A stretch of DNA of 63,411 nt, filler included, from Octopus bimaculoides (Eukaryota): assembly GCF_001194135.2 (NCBI RefSeq). It is 6 parts of 4 records of this genome, joined end to end, with 100 filler letters (N's around TTAATTAATTAA, not from the genome) between each part and the next. Parts side by side here need not be neighbours in the genome. Positions count along the whole stretch, not along the records: positions 8,856 to 20,537 come from NC_068991.1; positions 20,638 to 32,334 come from NC_068991.1; positions 32,435 to 44,459 come from NC_069002.1; positions 44,560 to 60,578 come from NC_068983.1; positions 60,679 to 63,411 come from NC_068991.1; 1 more part is not named here. One strand, given 5' to 3'. A program made the translations under genes and the position numbers. Position 1 is the first letter of the stretch. Each line of letters begins with the position of its first letter. The notes under the pieces were generated by a model. It searched no databases and was not told the DNA's origin. It worked only from the letters and a program-made list of their open reading frames with translations. Below are positions 8,856 to 63,291 of the stretch, piece by piece.

Positions 8856-9960
8856 TGTTTGTAAAGAATAAAAAGCTTTGAATGTTACAACAATGCACTA
8901 TAATACAAAAAATGGACTATATACCTGTCGTAATTTAGTTATCTATAGTCCGATGATATTTCGGAATACAATTCCTTCTTCAGATATTCTTATATGGAGT
9001 CGCTGCGATAATAGGTTTTCCAACGGCTTTTCTTTTTACGGAAGCGTCTCAGCAGTGGTCTCACCAAGCTCCTTTCGGAATTCCTCATGAGAAGTGCGTA
9101 AGCTCGGCTATGTTTCAATCTCGTGTGTGTTGGTACATCTGTAGCGCTGCTTCTAAGTTATGTGTTATACGTGTAGCTTCTCTTTTTCCCCCTTCTTTTT
9201 TTTTTTTTTTGTTATAAACAATATATGAGCATGTTATTAAGAATGAGCCTACACACATCCAGATGTAGCTAAATAATATATTGATTACCAATCTCCAGCC
9301 TGTTGTTAATTTGGGGTCCTAGTCTGTGTATGGGTATAGATTCCTTAATTCTTAAATTACCCAAATTTCTTTCATTGGCCTCAATTGTGACTGTTATGCT
9401 TTTGTCGGTGTTCCGGCATCTGTCTAGATGTTTTCCGAAGGAGGAGGCTCTCGTGTTCAGATGTTCTTTGATGCGGACGTGTAACGGTCTTGTTGTGCTA
9501 CCCACATAGATCTTGTTGCATTTGTTACATTGTATTTTATACACAACATTTACCCGTTGACATAAATCTGTGTCACGGATGGGACAATTTGTTAATGTGC
9601 ATTGATTGTTGTCCGTTATTCGTTTCTTTGCGAGGTGTCCCCTCAGAGAGGTGCCAGAGTGGGCTAGTTGTATGTCTAGCCCTTCTCTTCTTATGGCTCT
9701 TCGGATGGCTGTAGTTATCCTCTCGCTAAAATGGGGTATTTTAAGGAAGCATGTGTTGCTGGGTTTTCTATGTGTTCGGCGTGTTGGTCGTCTTGGGTTA
9801 CAATGGATCTATGATACCCGTTGGTTTTCAATATATCTAGGAAGCGTGTAGTGTGGGTCACCTTGTCCTCCGTTCTGCTGTACTTGCCTTGGTTGCGTGC
9901 AAGTTCATTTCTGGCGTATCCTATTTTGGCTATTGGTAATAAAGAAGAACAACAACACAC
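8856..9960 (-). mobile_element. Penelope-like element 3' fragment: RT-to-EN linker, GIY-YIG endonuclease, 3' terminal repeat
   Basis: 9269-9544(-) YKIQCNKCNKIYVGSTTRPLHVRIKEHL...LRIKESIPI...PQINNRLE is a GIY-YIG domain with CxxC; upstream ILKTNGY linker; 8856-9100 is homologous to 26200-26432. Confidence 0.9.
8940..8987 (-). ncRNA. Degenerate minimal hammerhead-like motif in a PLE terminal repeat
   Basis: Minus strand CUGAAGA-A-GGAAU(UGU)AUUCC-GAA-AUAU-C: core and stem II intact, palindromic AUAU stem III, stem I only about 2 bp. Confidence 0.45.
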
Positions 9961-10111
9961 CCGGTAAATTTCCTACGTACCAATTAGACCACCCACTCCA
10001 CCCACCCCAACCAACCAAGAACTCAACCACAAACTATCCAGATTGAAACAGTCTATCTCCAACATCTTAAGGAAGGAATCGAGAATAACCCCAAACTTAA
10101 CCAAGGCTGCT

Positions 10112-10546
10112 TATGGAAAAGTGATTCGAATCATTCCAAACATTTTTCTACGCTTGCTCGTTTTGGCAATGAAACTTTCCACGAGCATGTGCAAAGCGTT
10201 TTCCTTGCACACAACGTTTTTATGCACATGCCTTATAGCACAGTGTGTTAGACGGTGCTGCATCATTGTGGTACGTAGCCAGGTCTTCAAACGGTGAAGT
10301 GCGTTGAACGTTCTCTCGATTGATGCAAGGACAGTATAAGCTGCAAGCGAGAGATTGTTCAGCGCACTTCGCCGTTTGAAGATCTGGTTCCGTACCACAA
10401 TGACGCAGCACTGTATAACACACTGTGCTATAATACATGTGCATAAAAACTTGTGCAATGAAAATGCTTTGCACATCCTCATGGAAAGTTTCATTGCCAA
10501 AACGAGTGTAAAAATATTTTGGGATGATTGGAAGCAGTTTTCCATA
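10112..10546. repeat. Fold-back of about 435 bp built from a hAT transposase C-terminal (dimerisation-domain) fragment
   Basis: Arms about 10112-10327 and 10342-10546 are imperfect reverse complements; each encodes ERTF(N/S)AL(H/R)RLK(T/I)W(L/F)RTTM(M/T)QH...HVHK. Confidence 0.85.
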
Positions 10547-10799
10547 TGTACGAGACAGAATAAGCTGCAATAGTATCAATAGTTACTAGAACGAATAACA
10601 GCATCAGAAGCTCTCCATTTTTCGACGATGTCATGCAATTATTTGGGCAAAGTTTCTTTTCCGTCCACGGTCCAGCAAGGAGCTTGATGCAGACTTATAT
10701 TGCTATGAGTTATACATTCAGATTAAGGTGGCTAGTGGGGGAAAGAAAAGTATAAGTCTTCACAAATTGAGGAATTGAGGAAATGAGAAATGAGAATAG

Positions 10800-11131
10800 T
10801 TGGCCTGTCAATTGCGCTAGTACTGAGGCGTGGCCGTGGCGGCTGGTCATGTTGCTGTTTTTACTGCAGCTGTTGTTGCTACCACATACTTTTGATGTTG
10901 ATGCTACTTTCGTTCAGAAGTTTGTCATGAATTCTCTTGGGACTTTTATGACCAGCTTCATTTTTCTTTTATTTATCTTTGTCCGTTGTTTTAGTTGAGA
11001 AGAAATCTAACTTCAAGCAACTTTTACAGATCAATTTTTAGACACTATTTTCTGAACCTGGCAAAGGTATGTGAGGGGTCCAAATTTTGATTTCCACCCC
11101 CTAAAAGTTTTTGGAGGTGCAACTACACCAC
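10800..11131 (-). mobile_element. Probable hAT terminal/5' remnant
   Basis: ggggtccaaattttgatttccaccccc...ggaggtgcaactacacc is a hAT-type subterminal sequence next to the hAT fold-back; truncated by a gap. Confidence 0.3.
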
Positions 11132-60578: not shown

Positions 60579-60678
60579 NNNNNNNNNNNNNNNNNNNNNN
60601 NNNNNNNNNNNNNNNNNNNNNNTTAATTAATTAANNNNNNNNNNNNNNNNNNNNNNNNNNNNNNNNNNNNNNNNNNNN
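60579..60678. other. Artificial scaffold-joining spacer
   Basis: Same unit; 12-mer at 60623-60634. Confidence 0.97.
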
Positions 60679-62416
60679 GTGTGTGTGTGTGTGTGTGTGT
60701 GTGTGTGTGTGTGTGTGTGTGTGAGTGTGAGTGTTGGTAAATTTTCTGCAGATGTAACAAATACTGTAAAAAATTATTTGAGTCTAATGAACGTGAAGGA
60801 TTAGGATTATGAATAGAAATTATTATATGTATGTATATGCATGTATGTGTATAAGTACATATCTATGCATGTATGCATATGTGTGTGTACGTATGTGCAT
60901 GCGTGTATGAATGTACATATGTACTCACACTGTGTAGAAAAATGAACATTGTGAATATGATTTGAGCATGCATACACATGCAAATAGACGCATTCGTACA
61001 AATGCATACTTATATAGAAATATACATTCTAACATGCATGTATATATATATATATATNNNNNNNNNNNNNNNNNNNNNNNNNNNNNNNNNNNNNNNNNNN
61101 NNNNNNNNNNNNNNNNNNNNNNNNNNNNNNNNNNNNNNNATACAGACATATATACATTCATATAAACGTACACACCCACACATATACACGTACAAAGTAA
61201 TCTTTTTCATTTCGATTTTTTTGTCTTCTCTTTGAAAATTAATTCCCTGATGAATGAAACAGACTGCTCTCCTCGATGACAAAAAATAAAGTTAATCGTA
61301 GGAATAAGTTGAAAATACACATACGCACACAACACAGCAGAATAACACACACACACACACACACACACACACACACACACACACACACACCATTACGCAT
61401 ACGAACATATTCACTCATATTCACTTATGTACAGACGTACTTACGCATTTATAAACGTCTTGATGAGGGATTAAGATTAAGTTAATACCATGAGATCTTA
61501 ATAATTAGTGCTTTCTGTCTTTTAAACATTGATTAAGGATGTTAGTTTAATAATCAACATCATAAGTTTAATTGTTTGTATATATTTATGCATGTGCTTA
61601 TGTTAGTTCGTATATATATATATATATATATATATATATATATGCTTGCGTGCATATACATACTTATATATACATGTACATCTGTATGTATGAATCGGTA
61701 TGTATGTAAATATGTATGTACATGTACAATTTGCGAGTGCTTTTAACATTGCACTTCTATATGTACACACATACAACGTAGTTTATTCGCTTGGTATTGG
61801 TTTCTATTCCAGCGCTCTGCACGCCATTTGTTCTACAATGCTTTCTACGATAGTCTTATTTCTGTATTGCCCACAAGGGGCTACACACCGAGGGGACAAA
61901 CGAATTAAGTCGATTATATGGCCCCCAGTGCGCGTAACTGCTACTTATTTAATCGACCCCGAAAGGATGAAAGGCAAAGTCGACCTCGGTGGAATTTGAA
62001 CTCAGAACGTAGCGGCAGACGGAATACCGTTAAGCATTTCGCCCGGCGCGCTAACGTGTTATGAATGATAATATGGTTGGTAGATGCCGTGCCGGACGTT
62101 GTTGCGCGCGCGCGCGCGCACGCACACACACACACACACACACACACACAAATACACCCGCACATACACCCACATACATGTACCCATTTTCGGAGAAAGT
62201 TTGTGCCCATACCTGCACGTCGACAAAATTATCTGCCTTTTCATTGAAGCTTCGAATCAAGATATTGTATTTCTCAGTTGAACATAAATTGCACCCGTGT
62301 GTTCCACTGGTCTATGATGTTTTGTTTTCTTTTAGTGTCAAGACATAATGAAAATAACGATATGAAAGAAGTTTGTTTCTTTAATTCTTGGGAGTTTTCT
62401 GTATAAAGGATACGTA

Positions 62417-62615
62417 TACGAGTGGATACTAAAAACTTCTTGGTTTTAAGGGTTTCGCGAAAGGCCTGGTTAGAGACCCAAACTTCCGAGTTCTTTTACA
62501 GGGCTTAGAAAATGTAAAGAACCACTGCAATAAGTGTGTGAATCTGAGAGTGGGATATGCTGAATACAATCATAATTAATTACCCAAAGCCGGAAACTTT
62601 TCAGTACCCCTCGTA
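62417..62615 (+). mobile_element. Internally deleted mariner (MITE-like, about 200 bp) flanked by TA
   Basis: TA-cgagtggatactaaaaac ... ttttcagtacccctcg-TA; interior reads GLENVKNHCNKCVNL, like the mariner C-terminus. Confidence 0.7.
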
Positions 62616-63255
62616 TATCGTAGTCTTTTTTACGAGTTGCATTTGTTTTGTGATCATTTACTTTTCCAGTCCATCTTGAAAAGCGATACTCACTGCGACC
62701 AGTCAACATATAGCAGAAAGCTACGAGAGGATGGATATAAAATCGATCCGGGATAAAAAAGATTTAATGAAGCGGGTTCATTTTTAACCGTTTGGGTTAA
62801 TGGTATCTTTCTCAGAAGTGAGAAGGCTAGAAATATGTTCAAGAGGGAATTATATTGATAAAAAAATACACAAAAAAACATTCCTCCTGCTACCTCACCA
62901 AAGTCCTTCTCCTTCTCACTGCTTTCATTACACCCTTCCTTGACTACCACGCCTCGTGTTCCAGAATAGATGGTCAACTAGCCTGCCATTCAAGCTACCT
63001 ATCTTACTTCGCACTGAACTTTGGACTATGCCCGTTCAATTGAGTAGGACTACAATTATACTGTGCCGTTTTAGGAACAATGAAATTTCCCCTTTTTGTT
63101 TCTAAAATATATAAAACGATATATACATACATATATACATATATACATACGAATGTGAATATGAATATGAATGACCCTTCTGTCCGGCATTCGCCATGAT
63201 AGATCGCTGACCACTACACATATATTTTTCTCTCTCCTTGTTAATTTCTGGGTTC

Positions 63256-63291
63256 CTTTCTGTTGAAGAGCGTAGGCTCGAAACGTTAAAG
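63256..63291 (+). ncRNA. Minimal hammerhead-like motif (CUGUUGA core), GUU triplet
   Basis: CUUU-CUGUUGA-A-GAGC(GUAG)GCUC-GAA-ACGU-U-AAAG within a third copy of the 42707 repeat. Confidence 0.55.

What the first reader, a model, noticed from the sequence alone, without database searches (positions are those of the whole stretch)
8940..63291. About ten hammerhead-type motifs from at least five repeat families share a palindromic mini stem III
Seen: CUGANGA-like core + stem II + GAAA motifs at 8940(-), 20643(-), 22624(-), 26290(-), 32640(-), 36188(+), 42769(+), 42974(-) and 63256(+), plus half-motifs in the 12991 hairpin. Stem III is palindromic or nearly so in every case (AUAU, ACAUAUGU, ACGGUCCGU, ACAGCUGU, ACGU). 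Known: Penelope-like elements carry minimal type I hammerheads with palindromic stem III that need dimerisation. Inference: about 9 per 63 kb across unlinked scaffolds implies a very large genome-wide load, much of it on solo terminal repeats that may move as retrozyme-like non-autonomous RNAs. Shared palindromes could also allow cleavage in trans between transcripts.
Basis: partly seen in the sequence, partly recalled or inferred. Interest (0 to 1): 0.75.

Follow-up and report, generated by a model that had tools for sequence, protein, structure and literature searches.

The report
Penelope retroelement hammerheads, one core variant
These are real but mostly worn hammerhead (self-cutting RNA) patterns, most of them at the broken-off tails of Penelope-like jumping genes, a kind already described in many animals; one very common family has a normally fixed core letter changed, which would likely slow cutting, and one overlooked family is a short ring-like repeat that likely spreads through an RNA copy.

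Summary
All nine motifs are at the stated places and exceed chance (4 strict hits against 0.1 in shuffles). They fall into six repeat families (A-F), and I found two more (G 37362, H 60256). Stem III is palindromic in each family, but the sequence differs, and it is 'mini' only in A, B and F. Six families (A-D, F, G) are 5'-truncated 3' ends of Penelope-like elements and run into GIY-YIG/RT coding sequence in other copies; E has the same end pattern but no proven ORF. This is the published PLE hammerhead. A 1-Mb sample gives about 40,000 well-formed motifs genome-wide, not about 330,000. Stem I mismatches largely exclude cross-family cleavage. One oddity: family A (about 26,000 copies, Neptune-like) has U instead of A6 (A in 35 of 2,082 exact-context copies), while N7 varies freely and the cleavage base avoids G. 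Cleavage is untested; RNA-seq shows no ends at the site. This scan had already noted PLE fold-backs and retrozymes in this genome and an A6U family in another.

The parts
8856..9948 (-). 5'-truncated PLE remnant, family B: RT-thumb/GIY-YIG coding end (ORF 9272-9808) plus 3' UTR
   Evidence: Pfam GIY-YIG E=2.7e-5, above cut-off; collinear with the RT-EN ORF of L052, RVT_1 E=4e-10
8948..8990 (-). Family B hammerhead: CUGAAGA core, 5-bp stem II, palindrome AUAU, predicted cut after C8955; stem I only 2 bp, as in the family majority
12987..13224 (.). Fold-back of two inverted, 5'-truncated family-C-like ends; each arm has the GAAA/palindrome half but not a whole CUGAUGA core
   Evidence: 93% self-inverted; 75-77% identical to family C majority
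20641..20756 (-). Family C hammerhead: canonical core, 11-bp stem II closing an 83-nt arm, palindrome ACAUAUGU, predicted cut after C20648; stem I begins with a C-A mismatch
   Evidence: Hydra-type EN remnant directly upstream in L062
22545..22862 (-). Family D PLE 3' end with a 5' inverted piece (22812-22862); hammerhead 22621-22709, palindrome ACGGUCCGU, extra A on both sides of a 55-nt stem II arm, predicted cut after A22628
   Evidence: Hydra-type RT-EN upstream in L099, L111, L114
26194..26453 (-). Second family B 3' end; hammerhead 26293-26335 with stem I reduced to 1 bp
   Evidence: 89% identical to the 8859-9107 copy
32535..32727 (-). Family E repeat end; hammerhead 32636-32722 with palindrome ACAGCUGU; stems I and II damaged here, 4 bp and 12 bp in the family majority; no ORF link shown
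36149..36355 (+). Family F PLE 3' end; hammerhead 36186-36229, palindrome AUAU, G8 and stem II damaged in this copy
   Evidence: GIY-YIG homology upstream in L152, L153
37279..37378 (-).
   Evidence: Hydra-type EN upstream in L189, L202
42701..42879 (+). Family A PLE 3' end; hammerhead 42766-42807 with A6U plus U4A, palindrome ACGU
42899..43050 (-). Family A PLE 3' end of another subfamily, tail to tail with the previous one across a 10-N gap; hammerhead 42971-43011 with A6U, 5-bp stem I
59841..60549 (+).
63188..63379 (+). Family A PLE 3' end ending in (TA)n; hammerhead 63253-63294, core CUGUUGA (A6U), palindrome ACGU, predicted cut after U63287
   Evidence: Neptune-type EN upstream on the same strand in 10 of 25 EN-selected loci

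Best explanation
The motifs are type I hammerhead patterns at the 3' ends of several Penelope-like retrotransposon families (ORF link shown for six families, likely for a seventh), left as 5'-truncated and mostly decaying copies, and they would cut RNA only as same-family dimers. Shown: motif anatomy, family membership, ragged 5' and fixed 3' ends, frequent inverted 5' partners, links to Neptune-type (A), CCHH-type (B, F) and Hydra-type (C, D, G) endonuclease ORFs, and a 485-nt circularly permuted non-coding unit for H. Inferred: PLE reverse transcriptase starts at the RNA 3' end and usually stops early, so the ribozyme-bearing tail is the part most often inserted. In an active tandem element two hammerheads pair through their palindromes, and the core of one cuts the strand of the other, so palindrome plus stem I act as a family-specific match. 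H is a non-autonomous unit copied from multimeric or circular RNA by PLE enzymes. Family A's A6U core is a slowed but still constrained variant. No cleavage was shown.
For: Excess over shuffles in the window and in a 1-Mb sample (strict tier 9 against 0, 0, 0). Among 17 hits found without asking for a palindrome, 10 are perfect and 16 are within one pair, against 2.8 expected (hits are not independent and ties favoured palindromes). Family majorities repair the defect of the window copy in E, F, G and H, and U4 of the 42773 copy. ORF links. Inverted partner within the locus in 45 of 207 family loci, direct partner in 5. Monomer stem III is impossible or unstable (+1.3 to +2.9 kcal/mol), whereas the 8-9-nt homoduplexes give -4.9 to -11.3. 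H: downstream sequence of 25 of 25 loci matches upstream sequence of other copies at a period of about 480; tandem dimer in L224; longest ATG-started frame 55 codons. A: U6 in 29 of 31 incidental copies, N7 all four bases, position 17 U/A/C and never G; A6 in 35 of 2,082 exact-context copies; A6 below the 2% listing limit in four runs under four organism codes. Published model and numbers match: PMC4209133, PMC8557442, PMC6765202.
Against: No cleavage evidence: 3,393 and 2,952 RNA-seq reads laid on family A show no pile of ends and no dip at the predicted site, though that test is insensitive. Genomic copies run about 90 nt or more past the site, so their templates were uncut there or re-joined. 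5' ends do not cluster at the site: 0 of 29 family-A alignments start there and 1 of 11 H copies does. There is almost no compensatory change within families. B and F have only 2 contiguous stem I pairs, and the majority of the 7 C copies has a mismatch next to the core. E has no demonstrated ORF link, C rests on one locus, and A's link crosses assembly gaps in most loci. Clade names rest on motifs, not on a tree.
Confidence: 0.85

Rival explanations
1. The short solo copies are themselves non-autonomous retrozyme-like elements that move as small circular RNAs.
For: True of family H: circular permutation, more-than-unit insertions (561-814 nt in 5 of 24 distinct loci of the first set), tandem dimer, no ORF. 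Most copies of all families are short and lack coding sequence. A 2026 preprint derives animal retrozymes from PLE terminal repeats (10.64898/2026.07.22.740005).
Against: Families A-G show no repeated period between downstream and upstream sequence (0 of 7). Their 5' ends are ragged, from about -10 to -975 relative to C3, and run into EN coding sequence in A-D, F and G. No go-back joint was listed in the RNA reads of A (table 5).
Confidence: 0.12
2. The motifs no longer cut at all: they are kept as a structural or protein-binding signal at the PLE 3' end, or are vestiges, and family A shows that catalysis is dispensable.
For: Family A reached about 26,000 copies (13,000-46,000) with a change at position 6; the analogous A6C change cut Mg2+-driven rates by orders of magnitude in one hammerhead (PMC7151607). 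Naiad PLEs proliferate without canonical hammerheads (PMC8557442). No read ends at the site. Eight of nine Xenopus retrozyme dimers did not cleave in vitro.
Against: Ten of eleven families keep the canonical core. In A the positions that vary among subfamilies are those a working hammerhead leaves free (N7, position 17 without G, loop II length). A U4A variant at 5-6% of depth in three of the four runs is the exception.
Confidence: 0.3
3. Shared palindromes let transcripts of different families, or host RNAs that carry a copy, be cut in trans across the genome.
For: Identical palindromes occur in A and I, B and F, E and J. Family A sequence is abundant in RNA-seq on both strands. The 8-nt palindromes form duplexes of -7 to -11 kcal/mol.
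Against: In the dimer, stem I also pairs between the two molecules (inference from the published double-hammerhead model). The families with identical palindromes share at most 2 stem I pairs, and only 2 of 110 ordered pairs reach 3 bp in both stems. The 4-nt palindromes give -1.7 or +1.6 kcal/mol. In the systematic sample only 4 of 11 A copies and about 4 of 16 I copies pass the descriptor.
Confidence: 0.08
4. The motifs are chance matches in an AT-rich, repeat-rich genome.
For: Loose descriptor tiers have a real background (62 hits against 8-23 in the shuffled sample). One window hit at 29152(-) was not followed up and is probably chance.
Against: Strict tiers have a background near zero. 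Each motif belongs to a family with 127-2,054 first-look candidates (the count for C is mixed with another repeat), and sits at the position published for PLE hammerheads.
Confidence: 0.01

Closest known systems
Minimal type I hammerheads (min-HHR) of metazoan PLE terminal repeats (Cervera and de la Pena 2014, PMC4209133)
   Same: Type I topology, extra nucleotide between A9 and stem II, G10.1-C11.1 pair, palindromic 15.1-16.1 segment (ACGU, AUAU), short stem I, thousands per genome, mostly single motifs in truncated PLEs, some in opposite-strand pairs (families A, B, F, I).
   Different: Family A has U at position 6; all 56 rows of their Fig. S3 have A6, though their descriptor fixed the core. 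The organism is not among their listed species.
Hammerheads of Hydra-clade PLEs (Craig et al. 2021, PMC8557442, File S2)
   Same: 9-10-nt near-palindromic stem III, including ACUAUUAGU (= family G) and ACUCGGAGU (= family K), often one extra base on each side of stem II, (TA)n targets, CxCX5C linker in the EN (D: L099, G: L189). Hydra-1_Obim is already listed from an octopus.
   Different: The stem II arms of C, D, E and H span 40-57 nt with internal loops in the family majority (83 nt in the window's C copy), whereas the listed Hydra-clade loops are at most 10 nt. None of five family motifs was found in that supplement by text search (wrapped lines could hide a match).
Metazoan non-LTR retrozymes (Cervera and de la Pena 2020, PMC7229834; Li et al. 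2026 preprint 10.64898/2026.07.22.740005)
   Same: Family H: non-coding, low-GC (31%) unit with one type I hammerhead, head-to-tail dimer, more-than-unit insertions, PLE-style inverted 5' pieces.
   Different: The unit is 485 nt (220-390 in the 2020 examples; 51-972 in the preprint). Its ribozyme is of the Hydra-PLE kind with a long stem II, not the canonical 6-bp/4-bp loop-loop form. Copies are dispersed, old (81-88% identical) and no long array was seen. Circular RNA is not shown.
Natural A6C hammerhead of phage Bcep176 (PMC3088659, PMC7151607)
   Same: A change at core position 6 in an otherwise complete motif.
   Different: Here it is U, fixed across a high-copy eukaryotic family, in a dimer-dependent minimal motif; activity unknown.

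Membership tests
PLE minimal/palindromic type I hammerhead | Core CUGANGA ... GAAA ... UH | tested here: met
   Met in the majority of B-H and in representative copies of I-K. Family A is treated in its own row.
PLE minimal/palindromic type I hammerhead | A at core position 6 (family A) | tested here: not met
   U6 in 29 of 31 incidental copies; A6 in 35 of 2,082. Family A is a core variant, not a consensus member.
PLE minimal/palindromic type I hammerhead | Palindromic segment from 15.1 to 16.1 that cannot form a stable stem III in one molecule | tested here: met
   All eight majorities are palindromic; monomer stem impossible or +1.3 to +2.9 kcal/mol.
PLE minimal/palindromic type I hammerhead | Stem I of 2-7 bp and stem II of 4 bp or more | tested here: met
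   Stem I: A 4, B 2, D 5, E 4, F 2 (+2 after a mismatch), G 4, H 7; C 4 after a first mismatch that some copies close. B, C and F are marginal. H has 3 pairs, then an internal loop, in stem II.
PLE minimal/palindromic type I hammerhead | Located in the terminal repeat downstream of a PLE RT/GIY-YIG ORF | tested here: met
   A (10 of 25 EN-selected loci), B (the window itself), C (L062 only), D, F, G. Not shown for E; absent for H.
PLE minimal/palindromic type I hammerhead | Site-specific self-cleavage as a dimer | not testable with these tools
   Needs an in vitro assay; RNA-seq of family A shows no ends at the site.
Endonuclease-bearing PLE insertion | Ragged 5' truncation, fixed 3' end, inverted 5' partner, (TA)n target | tested here: met
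   No inverted partner among the 30 A loci or 7 C loci, although the window holds a C-like fold-back at 12987.
Neptune clade (family A) | CX2-5CxxC linker before a C-terminal GIY-YIG with CCHH | tested here: met
   Linker and EN motifs read in L023, L334, L338, L343; definition from PMC8557442. No RT phylogeny was built.
Hydra clade (families C, D, G) | CxCX5C linker, no CCHH, divergent RT, (TA)n target | tested here: met
   CxCX5C in L099 (D) and L189 (G); RT and EN resemble the Hydra rows of the published alignment. C shows only the EN C-terminus. No phylogeny was built.
Penelope/Poseidon versus Nematis (families B, F) | Absence or reduction of the linker Zn finger; RT tree position | tested here: inconclusive
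   RT and GIY-YIG confirmed; a cysteine linker is present before the EN; clade not resolved.
Non-LTR retrozyme (family H) | Short non-coding unit with a type I hammerhead, repeated head to tail or circularly permuted | tested here: met
   485-nt period, dimer in L224, 25 of 25 loci consistent with the circle, no adjoining PLE ORF in the 50 locus records examined (some overlap).
Non-LTR retrozyme (family H) | Accumulation as linear and circular unit-length RNA | not tested
Non-LTR retrozyme (families A-G) | Unit-length periodicity or tandem arrays without ORF | tested here: not met
   No repeated period in 7 of 7 families.

The most novel reading that the evidence does not exclude
A Neptune-type PLE lineage spread to tens of thousands of copies, across at least four organism codes, with a hammerhead whose A6 is fixed as U but which stayed under hammerhead-type constraint (N7 free, cleavage base never G, stems kept): a naturally slowed, dimer-only, perhaps metal-selective ribozyme that tunes how often the retrotransposon RNA is cut. 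Beside it, family H is a 485-nt circular retrozyme built on a Hydra-clade hammerhead with a long stem II, and each family's palindrome plus stem I is a private address that stops families cutting one another.
Probability: 0.35. Interest if true: 0.55.

Novelty: new variant of a known kind. Interest (0 to 1): 0.32.

Why it matters
The main observation repeats a published result in one more animal. What could matter is that one genome holds canonical-core, A6U and long-stem-II families side by side, plus a retrozyme with a PLE-type ribozyme. That is a ready test set for an open question stated in PMC8557442: whether PLE hammerheads process the element's RNA or merely ride along. If A6U dimers cut, the known core consensus widens and descriptor scans undercount a large family. 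If they do not, a successful PLE spread without catalysis.

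Tried and rejected
Rfam: no hammerhead family among the 150 best of 246 window matches (96 lower ones not shown); 0 gathering-level matches in eight family loci. The repeat finder was swamped by microsatellites. An alternative register for family A (UUGAAGA as core) was rejected from the sequence: stems I and II do not form and the N7 variants would fall on U4. An A6 subfamily of A was not evident: the 35 A6 copies carry mixed N7 and position-17 states, as expected of scattered back-changes. 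Cleavage-site clustering of 5' ends was not found: 0 of 29 A alignments (many stop early in a low-complexity tract or reach the query's start) and 1 of 11 H copies. Sequencing-run search: no RNA holder listed; two raw RNA runs added by species label were laid, with no pile of ends at the site. Within-family covariation was not found; the higher identity of core than flank in that call is biased by truncation and was not used. The GAAA-before-CUGAUGA motif at 12910-12945 is single-copy, and that order is only weakly above the reversed control (22 against 13). An ORF link for E was looked for and not shown: the EN fragment in L149 lies across a gap and a (TA)n tract. Literature: seven searches ran; none of the listed papers showed a natural A6U PLE hammerhead (one search listed 20 of 86, one search listed 25 of 116). 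Lunse et al. 2017 (PMC5785218), the paper most likely to list such variants, is not held. File 1 of the PMC4209133 supplement was not searchable and the preprint's supplements were not seen.

Full report
Setting. The window is a pack of six stretches of a 2.34-Gb, microsatellite-rich animal genome, G000. Stretches 1, 2, 3 and 6 lie on C11, stretch 4 on C22 and stretch 5 on C3, so they are far apart but not all unlinked. Earlier notes of this scan call the genome an octopus; I did not test that.

The observation. I wrote a type I descriptor (stem I, CUGANGA with at most one change, an optional extra base on either side of stem II, GAAA, A...U segment, H, stem I) and ran it on both strands. In 54,540 non-N bases the tier with both stems at 4 bp or more and a perfect palindrome gave 4 hits; 60 local dinucleotide shuffles gave a mean of 0.10, maximum 1, and the reversed window gave 0. 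The loosest tier gave 7 against 1.12. Six of the nine pass a tier on their own; those at 32715, 36193 and 42773 do not. The scan added two motifs, at 37362(-) and 60256(+). The hairpin at 12987-13224 holds two inverted half motifs related to the 20749 motif.

Families. Each motif was searched in G000 and the best 25-30 loci aligned. For C only 7 of 30 loci were used, because the other 23 matched a neighbouring unrelated repeat. There are eight families: A (42773, 43004, 63260; ACGU), B (8983, 26328; AUAU), C (ACAUAUGU), D (ACGGUCCGU), E (ACAGCUGU), F (AUAU), G (ACUAUUAGU) and H (ACUCGAGU). Where the window copy is damaged, the family majority restores the feature: stems I and II in E, G8 and stem II in F, U4 in G, the palindrome in H. 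This test is independent of the descriptor. Within families there is almost no compensatory change (0-3 two-sided cells per family, against 4-67 broken cells), as expected of copies that decay after insertion. Between families the stems have different sequences and still pair. Stem I is weak in B and F (2 contiguous pairs) and starts with a mismatch in the majority of C copies.

What carries them. In A-G the copies end at about the same 3' place, often in (TA)n, and start at scattered 5' places. In 45 of 207 family loci an inverted partial copy lies close by; 5 have a direct partner. PMC8557442 describes this layout for PLEs (passages). The longer copies run into coding sequence. B does so in the window itself (GIY-YIG above the Pfam cut-off; RT and EN in L052). 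For A, 10 of 25 loci chosen by an endonuclease peptide have the family's 3' end downstream on the same strand, one has it upstream, and none on the opposite strand; most of these links cross an assembly gap. The A endonuclease has the Neptune linker. D and G lead into endonucleases with the CxCX5C linker of the Hydra clade, and C into the C-terminus of one in a single locus. F matches the B protein at 34-52%. E has no proven link.

One retrozyme. Family H differs. Sequence downstream of its hammerhead in 25 of 25 loci matches sequence upstream of it in other copies at a period of about 480; no other family shows a repeated period. L224 holds a head-to-tail dimer with a period of 485. Five of 24 distinct loci of the first set have one aligned piece longer than a unit, among them the window copy (565 nt plus two inverted pieces). 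A second set of 25 loci, chosen by the part away from the ribozyme and partly overlapping the first, also maps on the circle and shows no adjoining PLE ORF. The 3' ends cluster at two places on the unit. The unit has no ATG-started frame over 55 codons and folds somewhat better than shuffles (z = -2.4). This fits a non-LTR retrozyme (PMC7229834, passages) copied by PLE enzymes from a multimeric or circular RNA, which is inferred. A 2026 preprint argues that such elements derive from PLE terminal repeats (parts 1-3 of 5 read).

How many. I took 100 stretches of 10 kb at fixed positions on 26 chromosomes (834,644 non-N bases). The same tier gave 18 hits (reversed 2; shuffles 0, 1, 0), or about 42,000 genome-wide (25,000-67,000). 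Homology to 11 families, three of them defined from this sample, gave 41 core-spanning copies, or about 96,000 (69,000-130,000); this is biased up by those three and down by families not yet defined. Only 4 of 11 A copies and about 4 of 16 copies of the abundant family I pass the descriptor. Published counts are about 2,000-9,000 min-HHR per genome (PMC4209133, main text parts 1-2 of 4) and 126,247 type I motifs in axolotl.

Mechanism. The 4-nt segments cannot close a hairpin, and the 8-9-nt ones give +1.3 to +2.9 kcal/mol as monomers but -4.9 to -11.3 as homoduplexes. The published model is dimer-dependent, slow cleavage (PMC4209133; review PMC6765202, passages). In such a dimer the core of one unit cuts the strand of the other, so stem I must also pair between units (my inference from the model). 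Families with identical palindromes (A-I, B-F, E-J) share at most 2 stem I pairs, and only 2 of 110 ordered family pairs reach 3 bp in both stems. Trans cleavage is therefore plausible within a family and unlikely between families. Inserted copies extend well past the cleavage site, so their templates were uncut there or re-joined.

The A6U family. Family A has about 26,000 copies (13,000-46,000). Of 2,082 exact-context copies 35 have A at position 6. Among 31 copies met incidentally (of 77 intervals; the rest were dropped as query-selected, duplicate, gapped or lacking the motif) position 6 is U in 29, N7 is U 18, G 7, C 4, A 2, and position 17 is U 13, A 11, C 7, G 0. Reads and contigs under four organism codes show the same: N7 and position 17 vary most, while A6 and G17 stay under the 2% listing limit. 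Endonuclease-linked copies carry U6 too. The positions that changed among subfamilies are thus those a working hammerhead leaves free, which suggests continued constraint; a U4A variant at 5-6% in three of the four runs is an exception. A6C is known to impair Mg2+-driven cleavage strongly and Mn2+-driven cleavage less (PMC3088659 and PMC7151607, passages). Two raw RNA-seq runs (about 6% of each read) gave 3,393 and 2,952 reads, about equal on both strands, with no pile of ends at the site; this does not exclude slow cleavage.

Comparison with what is known. A, B, F and I match the min-HHR consensus of PMC4209133 (supplementary file 2, parts 1-2 of 3), whose 56 rows all have A6. The longer palindromes are published for Hydra-clade PLEs, including two identical to G and K (PMC8557442, section 11 and supplement part 2 of 59). 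The 40-57-nt stem II arms of C, D, E and H are longer than any Hydra-clade row there. Seven literature searches listed no natural A6U PLE hammerhead, but Lunse et al. 2017 is not held and I know it only through the review's citation. Earlier notes of this scan report an A6U family and other family-wide core changes in other genomes, and fold-backs and retrozymes in this one; I did not verify them, and they suggest such variants recur.

Verdict. The system is a known kind. The additions are a family-wide A6U core with signs of constraint, long stem II arms, and one retrozyme-like family. Cleavage is untested. Interest 0.32.

Noticed in passing
window 12910-12945 (+): GAAA, an 11-nt palindrome (ACUAUUAUAGU), U, then CUGAUGA: hammerhead blocks in the reverse order. 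Single copy in the genome search; unexplained, may be chance.
   Followed up: partly
   Followed up: no
window 14395-17011 (-): Body of a Hydra-type PLE (RT and EN, frameshifted, with a gap); its 3' end runs into an N gap at 13888, so its own hammerhead is not visible.
   Followed up: partly
window 22884-24787 (-): Broken Ty3/gypsy-like remnant (gag-like, RT and RNase H pieces; Pfam RVT_1 and RT_RNaseH_2); the family D copy sits at its RNase H end.
   Followed up: no
window 10112-10546: Self-inverted 435-bp element (82%) whose translation resembles a hAT transposase C-terminus (resemblance recalled; no Pfam hit).
   Followed up: no
window 17630-17708: Clean hairpin with a weak Rfam mir-190 match (30 bits, gathering 48); it also contains GAAA and CUGAUGA in reverse order.
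   Followed up: no
L263:5970 (-), L251, L239 and others: Family I, not in the window: canonical-core ACGU hammerhead, the most frequent family in the sample (16 copies in 835 kb); the natural comparison for family A.
   Followed up: partly
L275:5485 and 6143 (+), L312, L256, L242:2146: Further hammerhead families with 5-9-nt palindromes (J, K and unnamed ones), several as inverted pairs.
   Followed up: partly
window 52017-52712 and 47197-47574: Inverted pairs of other dispersed repeats (90% complementary arms); no hammerhead hit there.
   Followed up: no
window 29152 (-): Loose-tier hit with an A6C core and AGCU palindrome; within the chance rate of that tier.
   Followed up: no
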